Shown piece by piece: positions 1 to 62,487 of a DNA stretch of 64,000 bases. Source of the DNA: Lama glama (taxonomy: Eukaryota). A program made the position numbers and the translations under genes. The notes beneath the pieces are model-generated. The model ran no database searches, was not told the DNA's origin, and was given only the letters and a program-made list of their open reading frames with translations. The stretch lies in assembly GCA_028534125.1 (NCBI GenBank), contig CM052816.1:52144001-52208000 (forward strand), written 5' to 3'. Within the stretch, counting starts at the first letter, position 1. Every line of letters begins with the position of its first letter.

Positions 1-50
1 AGTAGGATCTCGTTGTTTATCTATTTTATACATAGTAGTTAGTATCTACA
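1..50 (-). mobile_element. L1 3'-UTR fragment (continues left of window)
   Basis: Matches the 3'-UTR of other L1 copies here (ttgtttatctattttata...gtagttagtatctacaa). Confidence 0.75.
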
Positions 51-62
51 ATGTATTTTTAA

Positions 63-250
63 GGCGGGGAGGGTACAGCCCAAGTGGTAGAGCACATGCT
101 TAACGTGCACGAGGTCCTGGGTTCAATCCCCAGTACCTCCTATAAAAATAAATAAATGGATAAACCTAATTACGTTCCTCCCCCAACAAAAAAAAAAGAA
201 AGAAAAAGGTTATACAAAATTAAAATACATACATACATATATATATATAA
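63..250 (+). mobile_element. tRNA-derived SINE (camelid vic-1 type) with A-rich/(TACA)n/(TA)n tail
   Basis: GGGGAGGGTACAGCCCAAGTGGTAGAG...GGTTCAATCCC (A and B boxes); probable TSD aatgtatttttaa at 50-62 and 251-263. Confidence 0.88.
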
Positions 251-1409: not shown

Positions 1410-2442
1410 TTTTTTTTTTTTAATGGTTTTTATTTTATTTATTTATTTTTTATTTTTTACATTTTTTTATTGATTCATAATCATTTTACAGTGTTGTGTC
1501 AAATTCCAGTGTTCAGCATGTTCAGCACAATTTTTCAGTCATTCATGGACATATACACACTCATTGTCACATTTTTTTTTCTCTGTGATTTATCATAACA
1601 TTTTGTGTATATTTCCCTGTGCTATACAGTGTAATCTTGTTTATCTATTCTACAATTTTGAAATCCCAGTCTATCCCTTCCCACCCTCTACCCCACTCCG
1701 TAACCACAAGTCTGTATTCTCTGTCCATGAGTCTATTTCTGTCCTGTATTTATGCTTTGTTTTTGTTTGTTTTTGTTTTTTAGATTCCACATATGAGCGA
1801 TCTCATATGGTATTTTTCTTTCTCTTTCTGGCTTANNNNNNNNNNNNNNNNNNNNNNNNNNNNNNNNNNNNNNNNNNNNNNNNNNNNNNNNNNNNNNNNN
1901 NNNNNNNNNNNNNNNNNNNNNNNNNNNNNNNNNNNNNNNNNNNNNNNNNNNNNNNNNNNNNNNNNNNNNNNNNNNNNNNNNNNNNNNNNNNNNNNNNNNN
2001 NNNNNNNNNNNNNNNNNNNNNNNNNNNNNNNNNNNNNNNNNNNNNNNNNNNNNNNNNNNNNNNNNNNNNNNNNNNNNNNNNNNNNNNNNNNNNNNNNNNN
2101 NNNNNNNNNNNNNNNNNNNNNNNNNNNNNNNNNNNNNNNNNNNNNNNNNNNNNNNNNNNNNNNNNNNNNNNNNNNNNNNNNNNNNNNNNNNNNNNNNNNN
2201 NNNNNNNNNNNNNNNNNNNNNNNNNNNNNNNNNNNNNNNNNNNNNNNNNNNNNNNNNNNNNNNNNNNNNNNNNNNNNNNNNNNNNNNNNNNNNNNNNNNN
2301 NNNNNNNNNNNNNNNNNNNNNNNNNNNNNNNNNNNCTAGGTCTTTGATGGTTCCATATAAATTTTATTATGATTTGTTCTAGTTCTGTGAAATATGTCCT
2401 GGGTAATTGGATAGGGATTGCATTAAATCTGTAGATTGCCTC
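1410..2442 (-). mobile_element. Young 5'-truncated L1 spanning the assembly gap
   Basis: Poly-T and 3'-UTR left of the gap, ORF2 sequence right of it; TSD agcctggctctt at 1398-1409 and 2443-2454. Confidence 0.9.
1836..2335. other. Assembly gap (500 N)
   Basis: Run of N. Confidence 1.
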
Positions 2443-2912: not shown

Positions 2913-5054
2913 ATTAATATGCGGGAAGGACACGTATAACACAGAGCTCCACAGGAAATACTGCCTAAGGGATAACGGAAATTTTGAAAAGAAACTAAAA
3001 CTGCCTCAACGAGGCCTCTGGGCAGCCAGCTAGGCTGGGGTACTCAAGTTTTTCCCTGTAACACCACAGCACATCAGCTCTGGACTCACATCCATGCCTC
3101 ACAAATTATCAGCTGCCACTGCCACAGCCCTCCAGAGCACCAGGAATAGTTTGGACCATAACCATTCAACCTACAAGTATCCAGAGTCTACTCTAAGAAC
3201 CATTACAGCTCCTCAAACAAGCCAATATAGAATGGAAAAATTAGGAATCAGGAAAGCCCACGTGGACCTCCCACTTGGTAAACCTCAGGGGTCACTTCCT
3301 CAGGTGCTGGTCCTGTGTGTACTCTTCTTTTCAGCCTGTGTTTCTCCTTAGAACTGTCATCAATTAGTAGTTTTTTTTTTTCTGTTCTACACTAGCTACG
3401 GAATAGAAAAGTTTCTATTTCCTTTCACAAACATTCTAAGAATAAGTTGACAGGCCTTTAGTTCGGAGACTTTATTGCTAATGAAAAAGGAAACCAGCAA
3501 AACTTGGAAATCAACATATATCTCAGAAATCTTATGAGGCTTCTCAAAGCAATTTCCCTTAGTCAGTTCGTGACTTTGCTTCTTAGGTGTTAATGTGAGA
3601 GGTCTGTCTTGATTCATTCTAACAATCCCTTATATTCTTCTGCTGGGATCCAGTTCCATCTTGGTTAAATATCAGATATTGTTACTCAAACTACAGCCCG
3701 TGGGATCACTGAGCTGGTATCATTGCTGAGTTTGCTGAAATTCTTAGCTCACTCCAGAAATTGCTCTCTGTTTTCTCTAAGACCACACTTAACCCATTCC
3801 TACTCTTCCCCCTTTTCTTTCTCATTCTCTCTTAAGAATTCTCAAATTTTTTATGTAGATGTTAAGACTTAACAGAGAACGCTTTCCATGTCTTAAACAT
3901 GCTAAGCAGAGATGTGGATATGCTGCGAGTTGTGAATTAATTATTGTTTTCCTAACGATTTCCCCCCAATATTTCTTTCCTTTTCCTTAAGACTACTACT
4001 AACCAATGCTGCCCCAACTCTAAATATCACCCCATGTTCATTCCATATTTTGTTTCAAGGTTAAAAGACAACTCTCTCCATACATAAAACATGAAAGAGA
4101 CTGTCACAGAAGCAGTGAATTACCTATGTAAAGGTATATAAGTTTCTGCTTCATTTTCTTTCTTTCAGTATTTTCTAAACAAATACGTACACAGTTAGAC
4201 ACAATAATTCACCATAGTCAATAAGGCTTAGTATTCTAATGAGCACATAAAAACTAGGAACTAAGGGGAAAAAAATGAATGTTGCCAAAAGTAACTCTGG
4301 CTTGACAGTCTATTTAACTACTAACAATAAGATCTATGTACCAAGTGGGGTTGCTATAACAGGTCTTTAAAAATATATTACAAAAGTTATATATATGGAA
4401 ATAAAATTTCAGACAGAATAGAAGAGTATAAAATACGAAACATGTATATAAAACAAAGGTTTTCCTTCCTTCCTTCTTCACTTCTCAGAGCTAATCATGT
4501 TTGACAGAGTCTGTTGTTACATCTTCAAGTATCTCTAAATTTGCTGATATCTTCAGTATAAATAAACAGAATTTGATTATAACACTGCTGACTATTAAGA
4601 ATTCATGTGGTGTTTGAATGAATTAGAATCATTAATTCCTCAAAAAATGTTATAAAAGCGATTCTGTACTGATGTACTATTAAGATTCTAGAGGTTTTAA
4701 AAAACTAACAAGACACCTTTTGTTAAAAACTAAGAAATTTCTTGCCTCAAATTCATCACCTTTACCTAGTACAGATTAAGAATAAAAAGATAATTTATCT
4801 TCCTTGCTAATTCTCTGTAATCCAATTACTTGATTTCCATGCTGTGCATTTTCTTAAACATCTCTGCTATATGGGTAAAGAATAACTAATCTACTATCCC
4901 TTAGGAATTCCTAATCAGTTTTCTCCATTTTTACTTTAAAGCTGCCAGCTGAATTTGGGGCTCTCTTTCTAAGCTTCATTTTAGTGTTTTATTTTGAATA
5001 GTATCTAAAATCTCTGGATTTTATTAAATAAAATCTGTGATGTTGATAATTCCT

Positions 5055-5320
5055 TGTGTAGAGTGAAATAATGACATGGTATAAGGATTGGAGTCAGGCT
5101 GACCTAGGCTGGAACTGAGTTTTTTCTAACTTGGGTAATTTATCTCACTACCCTAAGCCTCAGTTTTCCTTCCTGCAAAACTGGAAAAACCCCTTTCTGT
5201 ATTGTTACATGGATTCAATAATATATGCTTGTTACAAGGATTCAATAATATATGTAAAGCACTTAGCACCATTCCAAACTTAGTAAGTGTTTGCTAAATG
5301 GTTAACTATATGACTATTAT
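5055..5320 (+). mobile_element. MIR SINE (with internal 27-bp tandem duplication near 5202-5254)
   Basis: MIR core: gcctcagttttccttcctgcaaaa...atgtaaagcacttagcac. Confidence 0.75.
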
Positions 5321-6551
5321 TATAGCACGTACACTCAGCTTTCCCCATTGTAATACCAGGTAACCACTTTTCTACTACACATCTTTTATTAAGGTATTAA
5401 GCAATTTTGATCATTTCATTTTCAACAAGTAGACCAGAACAGTGGTGCTGAGGTCACTTGTCACAGTCATAATTGTATAATGAAACCAAGAGATATTTGG
5501 TATTTGCCTGTTCAGGGAGGGCTGAGAAGTATAGATATTGTAAAATCATTTTTCTGTTATATAGAGCACTATATGGAATGCATTATGAAGTCTCTGCCTG
5601 AGTATAAATAACATCTTAAGTCCAGAAGACAGGCTAACTTAACCAATGGTCCATTAAATTAATATACATTTCTAAAAAGATTATAATTTAATGTAGACTT
5701 TCTTATTTCAAATAATCATATAAATCAACACTCCTGGCTAAACAGATAAAGTGATCTAAGTATTTTAAAAACTGATTTGAAATTAAGCCTTTCTCTCAGT
5801 TGGAATATATATTTTATCAGCCATATGATGCAATGCCTCAAGTACTCAACCACACTTAAAAAAAAGCATACTTCTTCTTGGTTCTCATTCAGATATTAAT
5901 ATCAAACTTTAAACAGAAGTACACATAACAAAAACTACATTCTAGACAGCACCATAATATTATGCAAGGCTCACTAAATGGAGGTTTTCACTACATACAT
6001 ACAAAGTTTTGGGGTTTTGTTTTGTTTTTGTTTTTTGTTTTTGTTTTTTTTTTTAGTGGACACACTCCTTCAGAAGGAAGCCTTGCCATTTAATCACTTC
6101 ATGATCTAATTAATGTAGGTTGTTTACTTTGTATCATTTCATCATCTGTAGGCCAGGAATCAAAGAGTTACTTCTCTCTCCTGGATTTAGGGCAAATGAA
6201 TTCTATAAAGTTATTATTTATAATAGTCAAGCATTTCTATAACATAATTTCAATAAGTAATATTAAAACACATGTAACATTAAGATGCATGATTTCACCC
6301 AGAGACTAAAGTATGAAGTAAATGAGCAAACAAAATGCTGTTATTAAAGGAAAATTCTTATCAAAACAAGCTATTACAACATATTCCTAAGGAACAAAAT
6401 AGAAAATCTGAAAAAAAAAAAAACAACAACAAAAAACACACACAACAAAAAAAACAACCTTTCATCCTACCCTCAGATTTTGATTTACATTTTAAAATTG
6501 CTTCTCTATTTGAGGAAAACTAACACAAAATAAAAGTGTGTTTGACATTAC

Positions 6552-6720
6552 CTCCTGTCCTGAGACTGTCACATATTGTGCAGAAGGGTTTTTGAGTATT
6601 TTTCGTATTTCTTGCAAATGTATTTGGATCTTATAAGTAACTTCTTGAATTTCATCCTTTCTCTTTTTTATTAAAGGGAAATCAGAAAGATCACTGAATA
6701 ATTCAGTTTTATCCCCAGAC
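6552..6720 (-). CDS. MSH3: MSH3 exon 15 (169 nt)
   Basis: ttttttag|GTCTGGG...CAGGAG|gtaatg; encodes [56 protein letters not shown]. Confidence 0.97.
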
Positions 6721-7453
6721 CTAAAAAAATGAAAAAATGCAAATACATATATTGAACCACATTACTTATATCAATTATCAATTCTTTTTCATAGCATAAT
6801 GAAAGACCAAAGGGTGGGAAGTCAGGAAAACAAGGTTGTAATCTCAGCTTGTTCACTAAATATTTATGGGTCAGTTTCTTAATATCTTTGAAGAGAGACA
6901 AAATTTCCCTAACATCATTTTCGTTTTTCAAGTTCGTTAGTCTCAAGATGAAACCAAGAGATGAAATTAAATATTTGTAGTTTATTCAGAAAGTAAACAC
7001 AATGCAAATACTGTCAAATCTTTTTTCTTATATATAGAGTTCCTTGTGTGATGAATTGTGAAAAAATGACTACCTCTAAACGGATACCTTTGCTTCTGTA
7101 GTTTCTGAACATAAAGCAGATCATCTCTAGACATCTAGCAAATAAGCATAAGATGCCATTTGCCATCTGTTTTTAGATTAATAAACTGCTACTGTTTGCT
7201 CAACCTGGATTTTATCTTTTCATCACCTGACACCTGGAGAAGTCCTACATTTGTTCTACATGACAGAACTGCCTAAATTTTAGGCAGCAATGTGTTTTTT
7301 CCAGCTATAATATAGAGCCTCTAGTATCCAATCATATTTGTACCTTTACATGCAACTTCTCCCATTACTTCTAGGGAAGCTTAACCATCTACACATCAAA
7401 TGGCAAACACATTACTTTCACCGCTAGAAAAGAAGTAAGAATCTGCTACTTAC

Positions 7454-10519: not shown

Positions 10520-13500
10520 GAAGATAAACAAAACTGGTAAACCTTTAGCCAGAATCATCAAGAAAAAAAGAGGACCTAAATTAATAAAATCAGAAACGAA
10601 AAAGGAAAAGTTACAACTGACACCACAGAAATACAAGGGATTATAAGAGGCTACTATGAGCAACTATACGCCAACAAAAAGGACAACCTAGAAGAAATGG
10701 ACAATGTCTTAGAAAGGTACAATCTGCCAAGACTAAACCAGGAAGAAACAGAAAATGTAAATAGACTAATACCAGTAATGAAATTGAATCAGTAATTTAA
10801 AAACTCCCAACAAACAAAAATCCAGGACCAGATGGCTTCACAGGTGAATTCTACCAAATATTTACAGAAGGGTTAACATCTATTCTGAAACTATTCCAAA
10901 AACTTTCAGAGGAGGGAACACTTCTGAACTCATCTGATGAGGCCACTGTCACCCTGATACCAAAACCAGACAAATATATCACAAAGAAAGAAAATTACAG
11001 GTCAGTATCACTTATGAATATAGATGCAAAAATCCTCAACAAAATACTAGTAAATCAACTCCAACAATATCTTAAAAGGATCATACACTATGATCAAGTG
11101 GGATTTATCCCAGGGATACAAGATTTTTCAATATCCACAAATCAATGTGATATACCACACTAACAAACTGAAGAACAAAAATCATATGATTATCTCAATA
11201 GACACAGAAAAAGCTTTTGATAAAATTCACCATCTATTTATGATAAAAACTCTCCAGAAAGTGGGCATAGAGGGAAATACCTCAACATAATGAAGGCAAT
11301 ATATGACAAACCCACAGCTAACATCATACTCAATGGTGAAAAGCTGACAGCATTTCCTCTAAGATCAGGAAGAAGACAAGGATGCCCACTTGCCCACTCT
11401 CAGCACTTTTATTCAATACAGTTTTAGAAGTCCGAGTCACAGCAATCAGAGAAAAAAAAGAAATGAAAGGAATCAAAATTGGAAAAGGAGAAGTAAAATT
11501 GTCACTGTTTGCAGATGACATGATACAGGAAATCCTAGACACTACCAGTAAATTACTAGAGCTCAACAATAAATTCGGTAAAGTTACAGGATACAAAATT
11601 AATATACAGAAATCACTGGCATTTCTATACACTAACAATGAAATAGCAGAAAAAGAAATTAAGGAATCCACCCCATTTATGATCACATCAAAAAGAATAA
11701 AATACCTAGGCATAAACCTACCAAAGGAGGCAAAGGACCTGTACTCCAAAAGCTGTAAGATACTGACAAAAGAAACTGAAGATGGCACAAACAGATGGAA
11801 AGATACATCATGTTCTTGGATTGGGTGAATCAATATTGTTAAAATGGCCATACTATCCAAGGCAATATACGGATTCAATGCAGTCCCTACCAAATTACCA
11901 ATGACATTTTTCACAAAACTGGTACAAAAAATTTTTTAAATTTGTATGGAAACACAAAATTCCCTGAATAGTCAAAAAATCTTGAGAAAGAACAGAGCTG
12001 GAGGAATCACGCTCTCTGACTTCAGACTATACTACACTACAAAGCTACAGTAATCCAAACAGTATGGTCCTGGCACAAAAACAGACACATAGATCAATGG
12101 AACAGGACAGAAAGTCCAGAAATAAACCCAAGCACTTATGGTGACAAAGGAGGCAAGAATATACAGTGGAGAAAAGACAGTCTCTCTAATAAGTGGTCCT
12201 GGGAAAACTGGACAGCTACCTGTAAAAGACTGAAATTAGAGCATTCTCTAATACCATACACAAAAATAAACTCAAAATGGATTAAAGACCTAAATGTAAG
12301 ACAAGATACTATAAAACTCTTAGAGGAAAACAAAGGCAGAACATGCTTTGACATAAATCAAAGCAGTATTTTTTTCAAACCAGCTCCTAGAGTAATGGAA
12401 ATAAAAGCAAAAATAAACACATGGGAACTAATTAAACATAAAAGCTTTTGCACTGCAAAGGAAACCATAAACAAAACGAAAAGACAACCTACAGAATGGG
12501 AGAAAATATTTGCAAATGACATGACCGACAATGGACTAATTTCCAAAATATACAAACAGCTCATACAGCTTAATATGAAAAAAACAAAACAACCCAATCA
12601 AAAATTGGGTAGAAGACCTAAATAGACATTTCTCCAAAGAAGACATCCAGATAGCCAACAGGCACATGAAAAGATGATCAATTTAGCTAATTATCAGAGG
12701 AATGCAAACCAAATTACAATGAGGTTATCACCTCACACCAGTCAGAATGGCCATCATTAAAAAGTCTACAAATAATACATGCTGGAGAGGGTGTGGAGAA
12801 AAGGAAACCCTCCTACACTTAATGGGAATGTAAATTGGTGAAGCCACTATGGAGAACAGTATGGAGGTTCCTTAAAAAACTAAAAATGGACTTACCATAT
12901 GATCCAGCATATATCCAGAGAAAACTATAATTTGAAGAGATACATGCACCCCAGTGTTCACAGCAGCATTATTTACAATAGCCAAGACATGGAAGCAAAC
13001 CTAAATGTTCATCAACAGATGAATGGATAAAGAAAATGTGGTGTGTATATATATATACAATGGAATACAACTAGGCCATAAAAAATGAATGAAATAATGC
13101 CATTTGCAGCAACATGGATGGATTTAGAGATTATCGTATTAAGTGAAGTAAGTCAGACAAAGACTAATATGGTAACATTTATACGTAGAATCTGAAAAAA
13201 AAGATACAAATTCTATCTACAAACTAGAAACAGACTCACGGACATAGAAAACAAACTGTGGTTACCATAACGGGAAATGGGGGAGGGATAGATTGGCAGT
13301 TTGGGATTGATGGATACACATTACTATATGTGAAGTGGATAAACAGCAAGAACCTATTCTATAGGACAGGGAACTATATTCAATTTCTTGTAATGAGCCG
13401 TAATGGAAAAGAAACTAAAAATGTACATATATGTATATAGTATGTATGTATATGTATAACTGAATCGCTTTGCTGTACACCTGAAACTAACCATGTAAAC

Positions 13501-58443: not shown

Positions 58444-58472
58444 AAAATTCAACTCTCCCATCTAGGCCTCTT

Positions 58473-58824
58473 CGTATTTTTTTTAAAATATGTTTTTATT
58501 AAAGTATAGTCAGTTTACAATGTGTCAATTTCTGGTGTACAGCACCAATGCTTCAGTCATATAGGAACATACATGTATTTATTTTCATATTCTTTTTCAC
58601 CATAAGTTACCACAAGATATTGAATATAGCTCCCTGTGCTATACAGTATAAACTTGTTATTTATCAGATTTTGTGAGAATCCTGTATTTCAAAGCAAGAG
58701 ACACTCTGCCAGAATTCAGCAGGTATTCTGTGCGATTCAGTGGGTTTGTAGATGTAATTCTTGGTGTATCTGTGGGAGAGGGAGAGCTGTGAGTCTCTCT
58801 ACTCTGCCATCTTGGCTCAACCCC
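58473..58824 (-). mobile_element. L1 5'-end/3'-end fusion element (putative spliced L1 retrocopy)
   Basis: Minus strand starts GGGGTTGAGCCAAGATGGCAGAGTAG (L1 5' start with YY1 motif), joins the L1 3'-UTR at 58665/58664 and ends AATAAA plus A tail; TSD ctaggcctctt at 58462-58472 and 58825-58835. Confidence 0.85.
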
Positions 58825-60359
58825 CTAGGCCTCTTATTACCCCATTCCTTTGCCCAGATACCCTATTGCCTTCCACTGGGAGGCCATACCCCTTTGCTGG
58901 ATTTTATGGTTCTTGACCCTTTCTCCCCCAACACTCAACATGTAAGTTCTCCTCCATTCAGAAGTCTCCCTGCTGTCTTCACACCTCCTCTAATATTTCC
59001 AGCCTGTATGTCTCAGAGCGAACATTATTTCCACACACACACAGAACATATCCTCCTTCCTTCCCGCTACCAATGCAAAGCCTTCCATCCTGCAAATGTC
59101 CCCATCCCAGCCAACCTCCTCCACAACGCCTTCCTTGCTCTGCCAGGGCCTAGAAGCTCTCCTTCTCTGAACTCGAAAATAACCATCATCTGCTTCGTTC
59201 ATCTGACTTGCCTCAAAAATCAGTTTCTTTGAGAACTAGTAAATATTAACTAATATTTGTTTATTGCTTTCTATAGCTTTCCTCTTGACCAGGTTTATAA
59301 GCATATAAAATCTCTAAGCTTAACTGCAGTTAATACAATGCTTAAAATCATTGCTTTCCCTTTGTTTCTCTCTCTAGAGAGTATCTAAGAATATACACAC
59401 TCTTACAACAAATGAAAAAGACAACACTTAAGACAGTAGGACAAATTTCCTAAGAACCAACTGAAATCTTTCAAACATATTTTACATAAATGAAAAAAAC
59501 TAACCTAAGAAAAATTGATAGTTTATTATTATTTAGAAACAATACTATAGTTTAGTACTGTCTTTGACTAATAGTTATTCATTCTAAATACAAAGTAATT
59601 AAGCCTGTACCTAGTCATATAAAAATAACAGCGAAGCTGCTATTAGTCTTTTAATTGAAATTCATAGAATATAAAATCCTTTGGAGACCTCTTGTGGTCA
59701 AAGTTAAAAATATAAAAAAAAAAAACAAAAACACACAAAAACCCCGCCAAAACCCAATACATATTTAAAATGGATATTCTGTAATTCCAAACCATTCTTC
59801 CATCTTTTCTCACAAAGCTCTATTACTTCTTCATTAGTATTAATGAAATAACCACTAGCTGACAAAAACCTCTGGTTTTACCCTCAGATTTGCGTGGAAG
59901 AAAAAGAAGGGATTCCAAATAACTACTCATCACTATTTAAAATACAGAAGACAGCACCAAAAACACAACAAAACTCCTTGAAAATTCAATGCTGTGTTAC
60001 TTACTGGAAGTAAATATGGAACAGAATTTTGGCAAGCTATGTTCTTCATACTTAATTAAAAGAATTCCCTATCCCCGTTGCTAACTTTTTTTCTTTTTTT
60101 TAAACATGGCCGAGAATTGCATCTCTGGTTGATAGAAGCTAAAGATTATGGATGTAAACCAGTGTAAATGGACCCACTAGCATTTTCAGGGAATTAAGGT
60201 AGGACCACCTCACCTCAGTGAAGCAAAATAAAGAAAAAATGAATAAAAAGTTGAATGTAAAAATTTTTAAAGAAAAACAAATTGACTAAAATAAAACACA
60301 AATGATTGTGTTTCCAAAATGAAGTGAGATCTTTCTAAATAGAAAAATAATGGAATGCT

Positions 60360-62487
60360 TACATTTGTTTTTATGTCCATCACTCTAGGAACTGGTTTGA
60401 AAAAAATATTGGTACAATTTATGTCAGAGTGTTCTCCCTATGTTTTCCTCTAAGAGTTTTATATAATATCTGGTCTTACATTTAGGTCTTTAATCCATTT
60501 TGAGTTTATTTTTGTATATGGTGTTAGAGAATGCTCTAATTGCAGTCTTTTACAGGTAGCTGTCCAGTTTTCCCAGCACCACTTATTGAAGAGACTGTCT
60601 TTTCTCCACTGTATATTCTTGCCTCCTTTGTTATAGATTATTGACCGTAAATGTGTGGGTTTATTTCTGGACTTTCTATCCTGTTCCATTGATCTATGTG
60701 TCTGTTTTTGTTCCAGGACCATACTGTTTGGATTACTGTAGTATAGTCTAAAGTCAGGGAGCATGATCCCTCCAGCTCTTTCTCAAGATGCTTTGGCTAT
60801 TCAGGGACTTTTGTGTTTCCATACAAATTTAAAAATTTTTTTGTATCAGTTCTGTGAAAAATGTCATTGGTAATTTGGTAGGGACTGCACTGAATCTGTA
60901 TATTGCCATGGGTAGTATGGCCATTTTAACAATATTGATTCACCCAATCCAAGAACATGATACATCTTTCTATCTGTTTGTGTCATCTTCAATTTCTTTT
61001 GTCAGTATCTTATAGCTTTTGGAGTACAGGCCCTTTGCCTCCTTCGGTAGGTTTATTCCTAGGTATTTTATTCTTTTTGATGGGATGGTTTCCTTAATTT
61101 CTTTTTCTGCTATTTTGTTCTTAGTGTATAAAAATGCAAGTGATTTCTGTATATTAATTTTGTATCCTGCAACTTTACTGAATTTATTGATGAGCTCTAG
61201 TAGTTTTCTGGTAGCATTTTTAGGATTCCCTATACATAGTATCATGCTATCTGCAAACATGACAGTTTTACTTCTCCTTTTCAAATTTTGATTCCTTTTC
61301 TTTTTTTTTTCTGATTGTTGTGGCTAGGACTTCCAAAACTATGTGGAATAAAAGTGGAGAGAGTGGGCATCCTTGTCCTGTTCCTGATCTTAGAGGAAAT
61401 GCTTTCAGCTCATACAGTTTAATATCACAAAACAAACAAACAAACAAAACAAAACAACCCAATCAAAAATTGGGCAGAAAACCTAAATAAACGTTCCTTC
61501 AAAGAAGACATCCAGATGGCCAACAGGCACATGAAAAGATGCTCAATATCACTAATTACTAGAGAAATGCAAATCAAAACTGTAATGAGGTATCACCTCA
61601 CACCAGTCAGAATGGCCATCATTAAAAAGTCTACAAATAATAAATGCTGGAGAGGGTGTGGAGAAAAAGGAATTCTCCTACGTTGTTGGTGGGAATATAA
61701 ATTGGTCCAGCCACCATGGAGAAAAGTAAGCACGTTCCTTAAAAAACCAAAAACAGACTTACCATATGATCCAGCAATCCCACTCTTGGGCATATATCCA
61801 GAGGAAGCTCTAATTTGAAAGGACACATGCACCCCAATGTTCACAACAGCACTATTTACAATAGCCAAGACATGGAAACAACCTAAATATCCATTGACTG
61901 ATGACTGGATAAAAAAGATGTGGTGTATATATATCACAATAGAACTTGGAAATAGATATACAATGGAGTATTACTCAGCTATAAAAAGAAATGAAGTAAT
62001 ACCATTTGCAGCAACATGGATGAACCTACAGATTATCATATTAAATGAAGTCAGAGAAAGACAAATATCATATATCACTTATATGTGGAATCTACAAAAA
62101 AAATACAAATTTTATTTACAAACCAAAAATAGACTCACAGACAAAGAAAACAAACTATGGTTACCAAAGGAGAAAGAGCAGGAAAGGGATAGATTAGGAG
62201 TTTGGGATTAACAGATACACATTATTATACATAAAACAGATAAACAAGAAGAACCTCCTGTATAGCACAGGGAACTATATTCAGTATCTTGTAATAATCT
62301 ATAATTGAAGAGAATCTGAAAAAAGAACATATATATATGTATATGTATAACTGAATCACTTTGCTGTACACCTGAAACTAACACTGTAAATCAACTACAC
62401 TTCAATTCTAAAAAAATACATATATTAGCATGCATTAGCCAGTTCCTTTGACATAATGAGTACTTAATAAAAATAATACACAACTGG
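60360..62487 (+). mobile_element. L1 with 5' inversion (60360-61408 inverted; 61405-62416 sense) and putative 3' transduction (62417-62487)
   Basis: ORF2 peptides on opposite strands meeting at cagct; TSD gaaaa(t/a)aatggaatgct-type repeat at 60342-60359 and 62487-62504. Confidence 0.9.

What the first reader, a model, noticed from the sequence alone, without database searches (positions are those of the whole stretch)
58462..58835. ~350-bp mini-L1: L1 5' end fused to L1 3' tail at an apparent splice junction, inserted as one unit
Seen: on the minus strand, 160 nt beginning GGGGTTGAGCCAAGATGGCAGAGTAG are joined at ...CACAAAATCTG|ATAAATAACAAG to ~190 nt of L1 3'-UTR with AATAAA and an A tail. 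One 11-bp TSD (ctaggcctctt) brackets the whole unit, and both ORFs are absent. In sibling L1 copies here the same 3'-UTR position is immediately preceded by AG (cag|ataaac near 62237-62245; aaaatag|ataaac on the minus strand at 21-22). The copy at 1-50 has a perfect TACTAAC branch point (38-44) ~19 nt upstream of that AG. Known: CAAGATGGC is the YY1 site at mammalian L1 5' ends, and spliced integrated retrotransposed elements (SpIREs) are described in primates. Inference: almost the whole L1 body was removed as an intron and the non-coding RNA was retrotransposed in trans. It may represent a camelid non-autonomous, SINE-like L1 derivative family.
Basis: partly seen in the sequence, partly recalled or inferred. 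Interest (0 to 1): 0.8.

Follow-up and report, generated by a model that had tools for sequence, protein, structure and literature searches.

The report
Spliced, ORF-less mini-L1 retrocopy family
This 352-bp insert is a LINE-1 transcript that lost almost its whole body as one intron before being copied back into the genome, and a few hundred independent copies with the same splice junction lie in this genome.

Summary
On the minus strand an 11-bp target-site duplication (58825-58835 and 58462-58472) brackets 160 nt of L1 5' end joined to 192 nt of L1 3' end with AATAAA and an A tail.

Unspliced L1 copies read ...AAAATC[C/T][G/A]|GTAAGAG directly after the junction position (21 of 23 L1 5'UTRs examined). 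L1 3' ends read ...TACTAAC(N17)AG|ATAAAC (AG in 87 of 100 listed). A 6.85-kb L1 (L113) carries both halves about 6.5 kb apart.

The junction is not unique to this locus. There are 197 matches at up to 3 mismatches, against 235 for the unspliced donor site. The copies have different flanks and their own duplications.

The copies fall into at least four sequence subtypes, and each subtype also occurs in true L1 copies. The same donor is also joined to a second AG acceptor inside the 5'UTR.

Best reading: a SpIRE-type by-product, produced repeatedly by splicing of successive L1 subfamilies and mobilised in trans. A self-propagating SINE-like lineage is less likely. The copies are old (pairwise K2P about 0.15). 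The camelid origin was not tested, and no RNA evidence was obtained.

The parts
58825..58835 (-). Target-site duplication, copy on the 5' side of the element (AAGAGGCCTAG)
   Evidence: identical 11-mer at 58462-58472
58665..58824 (-). Exon 1: the first 160 nt of an L1 (5' terminus and start of the 5'UTR), ending ...CACAAAATCTG
   Evidence: It aligns to L1 5' termini that continue with GTAAGAG and the rest of the 5'UTR.
58806..58814 (-). CAAGATGGC motif near the 5' end. That this is the YY1 site of L1 promoters is recalled knowledge, not tested here.
   Evidence: conserved in family and parent copies
58664..58665 (-). Splice junction G|A (exon 1 | exon 2)
   Evidence: The junction string recurs 197 times at up to 3 mismatches. 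Parents read G|GTAAGA at the donor side and AG|ATAAAC at the acceptor side.
58473..58664 (-). Exon 2: the last ~190 nt of the L1 (ATAAATAACAAG... to the A tail)
   Evidence: 85-91% identical to the 3' ends of L062, L063 and L113, which carry the L1 body upstream.
58495..58500 (-). AATAAA polyadenylation signal, followed by ...TTTTAAAAAAAATACG
58462..58472 (-). Target-site duplication, copy on the 3' side
1..50 (-). Comparator, not part of the insert: an unspliced L1 3' end cut by the window edge, with TACTAAC at 38-44 and AG|ATAAAC at 21-22/15-20
62233..62418 (+). Comparator: an L1 3' end of another subfamily reading ...AAAACAG|ATAAAC

Best explanation
The insert is a retrotransposed splice isoform of L1 RNA, of the SpIRE kind. 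An L1 was transcribed from its own 5' end. The spliceosome then joined a strong 5' splice site 160 nt into the 5'UTR (G|GTAAGA) to an AG acceptor about 190 nt before the poly(A) site. That acceptor is the first AG after a TACTAAC branch-like motif.

This removed an intron of about 6.5 kb that holds both ORFs. The resulting ~350-nt polyadenylated RNA codes for nothing. It was reverse-transcribed at an A-rich target by L1 proteins supplied in trans, which left an 11-bp duplication.

The same event recurred over a long period from at least four successive L1 subfamilies. It gave about 200-300 copies, roughly 3% of the 3' ends of this L1 lineage and about as many as the L1 copies that keep the 5'UTR donor.

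Shown here: the anatomy, GT-AG in the parents, the constant junction, the independent insertions, and subtypes that parallel those of L1. Inferred: splicing itself (no RNA was seen), trans-mobilisation, and that most copies are first-generation products rather than offspring of other mini copies.
For: (1) All 40 scored matches of the whole-genome search span both halves and the junction at 86-90% identity, apart from the element's match to itself.

(2) The junction is constant in 30 of 30 aligned loci, and their flanks are unrelated except for L020 and L021.

(3) Donor. Of 30 loci that carry the 5' segment followed by a base other than A, 23 are L1 5'UTRs. 21 of those 23 read GT (mostly GTAAGAG) exactly after the junction position; L041 and L060 read CT. 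The donor pattern has 235 genome matches.

(4) Acceptor. 4139 L1 3' ends match the acceptor pattern, and 87 of the 100 listed have AG directly before ATAAAC. 12 of 22 L1 3' ends have an exact TACTAAC whose branch A lies 18 nt before the AG, with no AG in between.

(5) Both halves lie in single L1 copies: L113 (5' at 31-191, 3' at 6676-6853), L063 and L062. RVT_1 lies between them in L063 with E 8e-14.

(6) The same donor is joined to a second acceptor...CCCCTCTCCAG|CCAGGAGG inside the 5'UTR, in L039. There are 5 such joints in the genome.

(7) Signs of L1-mediated insertion. An exact flank repeat of 9 nt or more occurs in 23 of 59 copies against 31 of 352 mismatched flank pairs. 30 of 32 unique copies of an unbiased sample reach the L1 5' terminus.

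(8) Recurrence. The 5' and 3' markers are associated (Fisher p 1.1e-5). Each class also occurs in L1 proper: (T,A) in L062 and L063, (A,A) in L115, (A,C) in L113 and L114. The TATGTGAC subtype has 51 rows in L1 context and 7 in family context out of 58. In the tree of the 3' ends, family and L1 rows are interspersed, and 0% of bootstrap trees make the family one clade.
Against: No RNA evidence was obtained. Junction reads would in any case be confounded by transcription of the genomic copies.

The AU test does not formally reject a single clade for the family on the 3' segment (p 0.073, lnL difference 37.8).

The polypyrimidine tract before the acceptor is poor (CTACTATATATAAAATAG).

The derived 3' types are commoner in the family than in the sampled L1 3' ends: C or T at the marker in 38 of 57 family rows against 4 of 22 L1 rows. 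Part of the family sample is biased towards the query's type. Even so, some secondary amplification of mini copies is not excluded.

A share of about 3% of insertions is higher than I recall for trans-complementation of ORF-less L1 RNA in human cell assays (recalled, not checked).

Individual old parents have mutated splice sites. L062 and L063 read AA and AT at the acceptor.
Confidence: 0.8

Rival explanations
1. A self-propagating, SINE-like non-autonomous family. One or a few mini-L1 copies kept enough of the L1 5' promoter to be transcribed, and their RNA was mobilised again and again by L1 proteins. Most copies would then descend from mini-L1 masters rather than from fresh splicing.
For: The 5' 160 nt, with the CAAGATGGC motif, is kept in 30 of 32 unique copies. 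The copy number is about equal to that of L1 5' ends (197 against 235). Derived subtypes are over-represented relative to the L1 3' ends sampled. The AU test does not reject one clade (p 0.073). In the TATGTGAC subtype, 7 of 58 rows have the family context, a higher share than the overall ~3%.
Against: I found no family-private diagnostic positions in the 5' segment, apart from the frequencies of 5' terminus types that L1 copies also carry. Every family subtype examined has an L1 counterpart at both ends. A single lineage would therefore need five or more parallel substitutions. Family and L1 rows are interspersed in the tree (14 label changes). Human SpIREs that lose 5'UTR sequence show reduced promoter activity (PMC5860796, abstract).
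Confidence: 0.13
2. The junction arose without splicing. Either the reverse transcriptase switched template, or a microhomology-mediated deletion between the 5'UTR and the 3' end occurred once, and the product then spread.
For: One base (G) is shared at the breakpoint, and TAA recurs just after it on both sides (GTAAGA against ATAAAC). Five of the 100 listed family copies read GTAAAC instead of ATAAAC.
Against: The breakpoints coincide exactly with GT and AG. The donor matches GTAAGA. A TACTAAC lies 18 nt upstream of the first AG. The same donor is joined to another canonical acceptor elsewhere. The junction recurs on at least four L1 subtype backgrounds. The GTAAAC variants are few enough to be A-to-G substitutions at about 7% divergence per copy.
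Confidence: 0.04
3. The reverse direction: the 160-nt head was an independent short element with an L1-derived tail, and L1 later captured that head as a new 5' end.
For: In L1 copies the head is followed at once by a variable A-rich tract (GTAAGAGAAAAAAAGAAAAAG...), which looks like a linker.
Against: This does not explain GTAAGA at the exact point of divergence, the AG on the other side, or the second joint that uses the same donor. It also does not explain why head and tail subtypes co-vary in the mini copies exactly as they do in full-length L1 copies.
Confidence: 0.02
4. A deletion inside a full-length L1 after it inserted at this locus.
For: None beyond the bare structure.
Against: The same junction occurs at about 200 other loci, each with its own flanks and duplications.
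Confidence: 0.01

Closest known systems
Human SpIREs (spliced integrated retrotransposed elements; Larson et al. 2018, PMC5860796: abstract, section 7 and passages read)
   Same: These are retrotransposed products of spliced L1 mRNA. One 5'UTR donor is used with several acceptors. The junction sits at GT...AG of the unspliced element. They show L1 insertion hallmarks, they recur across successive L1 subfamilies, and they are regarded as evolutionary dead ends.
   Different: The human classes are intra-5'UTR or 5'UTR/ORF1 and keep ORF2. They number 131 copies, about 2% of annotated full-length L1PA1-6 (section 7). Here the intron runs from the 5'UTR to ~190 nt before the 3' end and removes both ORFs, so mobilisation must be wholly in trans. 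There are 197 junction matches against 235 unspliced donor sites, in a non-primate genome. A minor intra-5'UTR class like the human one also exists here.
Trypanosomatid pairs ingi/RIME and L1Tc/NARTc
   Same: A short ORF-less element shares its ends with the autonomous non-LTR retrotransposon of the same genome and depends on it. PMC5814959 (abstract in the search listing) calls NARTc the truncated version of L1Tc.
   Different: Those elements are treated as self-transcribed families with the Pr77 promoter at the 5' end. Their origin by splicing is not claimed, as far as I recall. Here the evidence favours repeated splicing, and promoter activity is untested.
HAL1 (half-L1) and processed pseudogenes
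   Same: All are L1-dependent copies of RNAs that cannot supply the full machinery. Like a processed pseudogene, this copy lacks an intron and has a poly(A) tail and a duplication.
   Different: HAL1 keeps an ORF1-like frame (recalled). This element has no ORF of 30 aa or more on its sense strand. The source 'gene' here is the L1 itself.
SINEs with LINE-derived 3' tails
   Same: Short, with a 3' end shared with the partner LINE, and mobilised in trans.
   Different: SINE heads derive from Pol III genes (tRNA, 7SL, 5S) with internal promoters. This head is the L1's own Pol II 5' end. No master lineage was detected.

Membership tests
SpIRE (retrotransposed spliced L1 RNA) | The missing segment is bounded by GT...AG in the unspliced element | tested here: met
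   GT follows in 21 of 23 L1 5'UTRs. AG precedes in 87 of 100 listed L1 3' ends. L113 has both, ~6.5 kb apart.
SpIRE (retrotransposed spliced L1 RNA) | Both sides of the junction are collinear parts of one L1 lineage | tested here: met
   L113, L063 and L062 carry both segments at 84-91% identity to the element. RVT_1 lies between them in L063.
SpIRE (retrotransposed spliced L1 RNA) | L1 insertion hallmarks: duplication, poly(A) signal and tail | tested here: met
   An 11-bp duplication, AATAAA and an A8 tail. Across the family, a flank repeat of 9 nt or more occurs in 23 of 59 copies against 31 of 352 controls.
SpIRE (retrotransposed spliced L1 RNA) | The same junction at several independent loci | tested here: met
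   130 matches at up to 1 mismatch and 197 at up to 3. The flanks differ.
SpIRE (retrotransposed spliced L1 RNA) | The spliced RNA is detectable, or the splice sites work in an assay | not testable with these tools
Indirect support: the donor is also joined to a second canonical acceptor.
Described human SpIRE classes (97/622, 97/790, 97/976) | Acceptor within the 5'UTR or ORF1, with ORF2 retained | tested here: not met
   The acceptor lies ~190 nt from the 3' end and there is no ORF. This is therefore a different class.
Self-propagating non-autonomous family (SINE-like) | Own lineage: private diagnostic substitutions, or a single clade apart from the autonomous partner | tested here: inconclusive
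   No private positions were found, and rows are interspersed in the tree. However, the AU test gives p 0.073.
Self-propagating non-autonomous family (SINE-like) | A functional promoter inside the element | not testable with these tools
   Only the CAAGATGGC motif is seen. Its role is recalled from the human L1 literature.
Autonomous L1 | ORF1 and ORF2 present | tested here: not met
   352 nt with no sense ORF of 30 aa or more.

The most novel reading that the evidence does not exclude
The spliced mini-L1 was more than a dead-end by-product. It kept the L1's Pol II start region and its 3' end, so it was itself transcribed and re-mobilised. On this reading it was a Pol II-driven parasite of L1 in a mammal, comparable to RIME on ingi. 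It took a growing share of L1's insertions: about 3% overall, and 7 of 58 rows in one subtype.
Probability: 0.15. Interest if true: 0.7.

Novelty: new variant of a known kind. Interest (0 to 1): 0.55.

Why it matters
Spliced L1 retrocopies have been described in humans as rare, ORF2-retaining dead ends (PMC5860796). Here one splice removes both ORFs, yet its product makes up about 3% of the lineage's 3' ends. It is also as numerous as the L1 copies that keep the 5'UTR donor site.

Three things follow.

- **Cis-preference.** The copies give a natural, long-running record of how often L1 proteins copy an RNA that does not encode them. That bears on how strict cis-preference is outside primates.
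- **Cost to L1.** A strong splice donor persisted in the 5'UTR through at least four L1 subfamilies, although it diverts transcripts into non-coding RNA.
- **Annotation.** Such copies will be annotated as two adjacent L1 fragments, or counted as full-length 5' ends, which distorts counts of full-length elements.

The copy in the window is an old, neutral fossil, and nothing suggests that it has a function.

Tried and rejected
**Steps that failed or found nothing**
There is therefore no read-level evidence on presence in other organisms or on RNA.
- The look-up of sequencing runs lists 14 DNA runs under five coded organism labels that hold 65-78% of the sampled words of the 1-kb stretch. Without laying the reads I draw no conclusion on orthology or age from this.
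- A scan of metagenome contigs for the junction found nothing.
- The search of earlier findings returned nothing by sequence, by words or by place.
Smaller requests were used instead. Only five long L1 loci with both ends were examined (L062, L063, L113, L114, L115). L065 showed no 3' end within 8.7 kb.

**Analyses replaced or inconclusive**
- The regex typing of markers miscalled some copies, such as L094. It was replaced by column-based typing. In one search the 3' calls of L097 and L100 (rearranged) and the 5' call of L109 (truncated) are unreliable.
- The AU test for several origins was not significant (p 0.073).

**Rows dropped before the tree**
- L021, L052 and L112, which are duplicate loci of L020, L011 and L028.
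- L061, L064 and L065, which are the same loci as L036, L058 and L043.
- Hits shorter than 130 nt or starting after position 15 of the 3' segment. This removed L072 and L083 (2 of the 20 fetched L1 3' ends), L097 and L100.
- Two unrelated older L1 3' ends (L034:1717 and L039:1169).
- L056, which has a deletion at the junction.

**Literature**
- Searches found no description of a spliced L1 family running from the 5'UTR to the 3' end. The passages read from a Camelus/Vicugna transposable-element survey (PMC8605555) do not mention one.
- Belancio et al. 2006 is not held.
- Repbase and Dfam cannot be searched here, so a library entry for this family may exist.

**Rejected readings**
- Post-insertion deletion, non-splicing deletion and head capture by L1 were considered and rejected (see the rival explanations).
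Full report
**What is at the coordinates**

Read on the minus strand, the stretch 58835-58462 has five parts in order.
- An 11-nt AAGAGGCCTAG at 58835-58825.
- 160 nt beginning GGGGTTGAGCCAAGATGGCAGAGTAG and ending ...GGATTCTCACAAAATCTG (58824-58665).
- Directly after that, ATAAATAACAAGTTTATACTGTATAGCACAGGG... (from 58664), running to AATAAA (58500-58495) and ...TTTTAAAAAAAATACG (to 58473).
- The same 11-nt AAGAGGCCTAG at 58472-58462.

The insert has no ATG-ORF of 30 aa or more on its sense strand. Within the window the 3' half matches five other L1 3' ends at 69-81% identity, and the 5' half has no second copy.

AG directly precedes ATAAAC in 4 of the 5 window copies examined (the copy near 13338 reads GG). 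It also does so in the truncated copy at 1-50, which has TACTAAC at 38-44.

**It is one of many copies**

A search of the window's own assembly (2.35 Gb) with the 374-nt stretch scored 40 of 4734 first-look candidates. All 40 span both halves and the junction, at 86-90% identity apart from the self-match.

In an alignment of 30 loci with 80-nt flanks the junction reads ...TTCTCACAAAATC[C/T][G/A]|ATAAACAACAAGTT in every copy. The flanks are unrelated, except for L020 and L021, which share flanks and are one locus present twice.

Pattern counts over the whole genome, with reversed-pattern controls of 0 throughout:
- the junction has 130 matches at up to 1 mismatch;
- the junction has 197 matches at up to 3 mismatches;
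- the unspliced donor region has 235 matches at up to 3 mismatches;
- the unspliced acceptor region has 4139 matches at up to 1 mismatch.

At comparable stringency the spliced form is therefore about 3% of this lineage's 3' ends (130 against 4139). It is about as frequent as L1 copies that still have the 5'UTR donor (197 against 235). The two bases before the junction are CG, TG or CA in most copies, the pattern expected from an ancestral CpG.

**The parents have GT and AG at the breakpoints**

I searched for the last 19 nt of the 5' segment followed by two free bases and then any base other than A. This gave 80 hits. I read 30 of them with their flanks.
- 23 are L1 5'UTRs that continue past the junction position. 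21 of these read GT there, mostly GTAAGAG followed by a variable A-rich tract and then ...GGTGCAGGACCGGTCCTGCAGGGAGGGAG. L041 and L060 read CT.
- 5 are family copies with a substitution at the first base of the 3' segment (L034, L042, L045, L046, L052).
- 1 is a family copy with a small deletion at the junction (L056).
- 1 is a different joint (L039, described below).

The parents start at the same 5' position as the mini copies and have unrelated upstream flanks. The 160 nt is therefore the true L1 5' terminus.

On the other side, 87 of the 100 listed L1 3' ends have AG immediately before ATAAAC. The other 13 read AA (5), AC (4), GG (2), AT (1) and TG (1).

In 22 L1 3' ends read with context, the common form is TTTGCAGATACTAACTACTATATATAAAATAG|ATAAACAAC. 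12 of the 22 have an exact TACTAAC. Its branch A lies 18 nt before the AG, and that AG is the first one downstream. The pyrimidine tract is poor.

By established splicing rules (donor consensus MAG|GTRAGT; a U2-complementary branch site; first AG downstream of the branch), this is a strong donor paired with a branch-driven acceptor. That comparison rests on recalled consensus motifs. No splice-site scorer was available.

**Both halves lie in single L1 copies**

- L113 has the 5' segment at 31-191 and the 3' segment at 6676-6853, at 89% and 91% identity to the window element. It reads ...AAAATCCA|GTAAGA at the donor and ...ATATAAAATAG|ATAAACAAG at the acceptor. The removed part is about 6.48 kb.
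- L063 has the segments at 111-262 and 5159-5349, and L062 at 111-270 and 3056-3217. Both have GTAAGAG at the donor and a mutated acceptor dinucleotide (AT in L063, AA in L062).
- In L063, a frame fragment between the two sites matches Pfam RVT_1 with E 8e-14.

I did not map the ORF1 start or the ORF2 stop codon.

**An independent sign that the donor works**

In L039 the same 5' segment is joined to CCAGGAGGTCA.... In six L1 copies that string lies about 100 nt further into the 5'UTR and is preceded by ...CCCC(N)TCTCCAG|, a textbook acceptor. In a seventh copy, L063, CAC stands in place of CAG. This joint has 5 genome matches at up to 3 mismatches, two of them on one contig. It is the counterpart of the human intra-5'UTR SpIREs.

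**The copies are independent L1-type insertions**

I compared the 5' and 3' flanks of 59 unique copies. An exact shared string of 9 nt or more occurs in 23 of the 59, against 31 of 352 mismatched flank pairs. For 10 nt or more the figures are 18 of 59 against 14 of 352. Many further duplications have a single mismatch, for example in L003, L009 and L012.

The duplications are A-rich at their start, as expected for L1 endonuclease targets (recalled).

I also took an unbiased sample: all 33 copies that match the junction pattern exactly. These are 27 newly fetched loci plus L003, L008, L010, L023, L025 and L028. L112 is a duplicate of L028, which leaves 32 unique copies. 30 of the 32 reach the L1 5' terminus; L106 and L109 are 5'-truncated.

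**One origin or many**

The 5' segment shows no position that separates family copies (33) from L1 parents (21), apart from the type of the first ~10 nt. The family is mostly ...GTTGAGCC or GAGGAGCC, with A at the marker in 27 of 33. The parents are mostly GAGGTGCC, with T in 13 of 21 and A in 5 of 21.

In the 3' segment the main markers are these.
- TCATGTATGAC changing to TCCTGTATGAC and then TCCTATATGAC.
- GAAGCATT changing to GAAGTATT.
- GGTGAA changing to GGTTAA.
- Family rows carry C 34, A 19 and T 4 at the first marker. L1 rows carry A 16, C 3, T 1, G 1 and one gap.

The 5' and 3' markers are linked in the family: (A,C) 31, (T,A) 12, (A,A) 9 and (T,C) 1, with Fisher p 1.1e-5.

Each class also exists in L1 proper.
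- (T,A) in L062 and L063.
- (A,A) in L115.
- (A,C) in the 6.85-kb L113 and in L114.

Eight L1 copies with the TTGAGCC terminus and the GTAAG donor match an exact gapped pattern. L1 3' ends with the derived haplotypes also occur (L076, L079, L069, L075).

A well-supported clade of six family copies (99/94) carries a further type...AACCATATT...AACCTATGGTGAAGAAG...TATGTGAC. A gapped pattern for that type gives 58 rows. 51 have the L1 acceptor context and 7 have the family junction.

In the maximum-likelihood tree of the 3' segment (57 family rows and 22 L1 rows) the two labels are interspersed. The tree needs 14 label changes, and 0% of bootstrap trees make the family one clade. Most branches are weak, however. 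The AU test of one clade gives p 0.073 with an lnL difference of 37.8, so it does not reject a single clade.

Taken together, a single mini-L1 lineage would need the same five or more substitutions as L1 at both ends. Repeated production of the same joint from successive L1 subfamilies is the simpler account, and a deterministic joint is what splicing predicts. Some secondary amplification of mini copies is not excluded.

**Age**

Mean pairwise K2P distance is 0.146 among 59 copies and 0.162 in the unbiased set. The window copy's nearest relative, L003, is at 0.067. Each copy is therefore about 7-8% diverged from its source.

At commonly quoted mammalian neutral rates (recalled: roughly 1-2.2e-9 per site per year) that is tens of millions of years. 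The window copy is a fossil.

**Comparison with what is known**

Larson et al. 2018 (PMC5860796; abstract, section 7 and passages read) define SpIREs. They report 131 in the human reference, about 2% of annotated full-length L1PA1-6. All use one 5'UTR donor with acceptors in the 5'UTR or ORF1. The authors conclude that these are generally dead ends.

The present element meets the structural criteria of a SpIRE but belongs to a different class.
- Its acceptor lies ~190 nt from the 3' end.
- Both ORFs are lost.
- Mobilisation must be wholly in trans.
- It is far more numerous relative to full-length copies.

In architecture it resembles RIME and NARTc of trypanosomatids, which are short versions of ingi and L1Tc (PMC5814959, abstract in the listing). 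I found no sign of a lineage of its own.

Searches of the held literature found no report of such a family. Repeat libraries could not be consulted.

**Limits**

Five coded organism labels hold most sampled words of the locus, but nothing was laid.
- Only five long L1 loci with both ends were read.

Noticed in passing
L039 (G000:C4:72539205-72539234) and 4 further matches: A second spliced L1 form. The same 5'UTR donor is joined to ...CCAGGAGGTCA about 100 nt downstream. In six unspliced L1 copies that string follows ...CCCCTCTCCAG|. This is an intra-5'UTR joint like the human SpIRE97/622. It has 5 genome matches at up to 3 mismatches, two of them on one contig.
   Followed up: partly
L031-L060, directly after the donor GTAAGAG: The L1 5'UTR has an A/G-rich tract of very variable length (about 10 to over 40 nt) immediately downstream of the splice donor. 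It looks like a microsatellite or a linker between two 5'UTR modules.
   Followed up: no
window 61-180 (+): A stretch with a tRNA-like head (...GGTAGAGCACATGCTTAACGTGCACGAGGTCCTGGGTTCAATCCCCAGTACCTCC) followed by an A-rich tail. It is probably a tRNA-derived SINE. From memory it resembles cetartiodactyl SINEs; this was not tested.
   Followed up: no
window 1836-2335: A run of 500 N, either a gap or a withheld stretch. It lies next to the L1 3' end at 1448-1641.
   Followed up: no
L020/L021, L011/L052, L028/L112, and pairs on contigs C961247, C95731 and C450146: Several copies occur twice with identical flanks, on different contigs or far apart on one contig. These are assembly duplicates or segmental duplications. 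They slightly inflate the pattern counts.
   Followed up: partly
L034, L042, L045, L046 and C13:13321915, C23:7286739: A few family copies read GTAAAC instead of ATAAAC at the first base after the junction (5 of the 100 listed). I read this as A-to-G substitution. L034 and L042 also share the GAGATGCC 5' terminus, so some may be related.
   Followed up: partly
L114 and L115: L1 copies of only ~2 kb that have an intact 5' terminus, the donor and a true L1 acceptor context. These are internally deleted L1 copies of another kind, with breakpoints inside the body. Their breakpoints were not examined.
   Followed up: no
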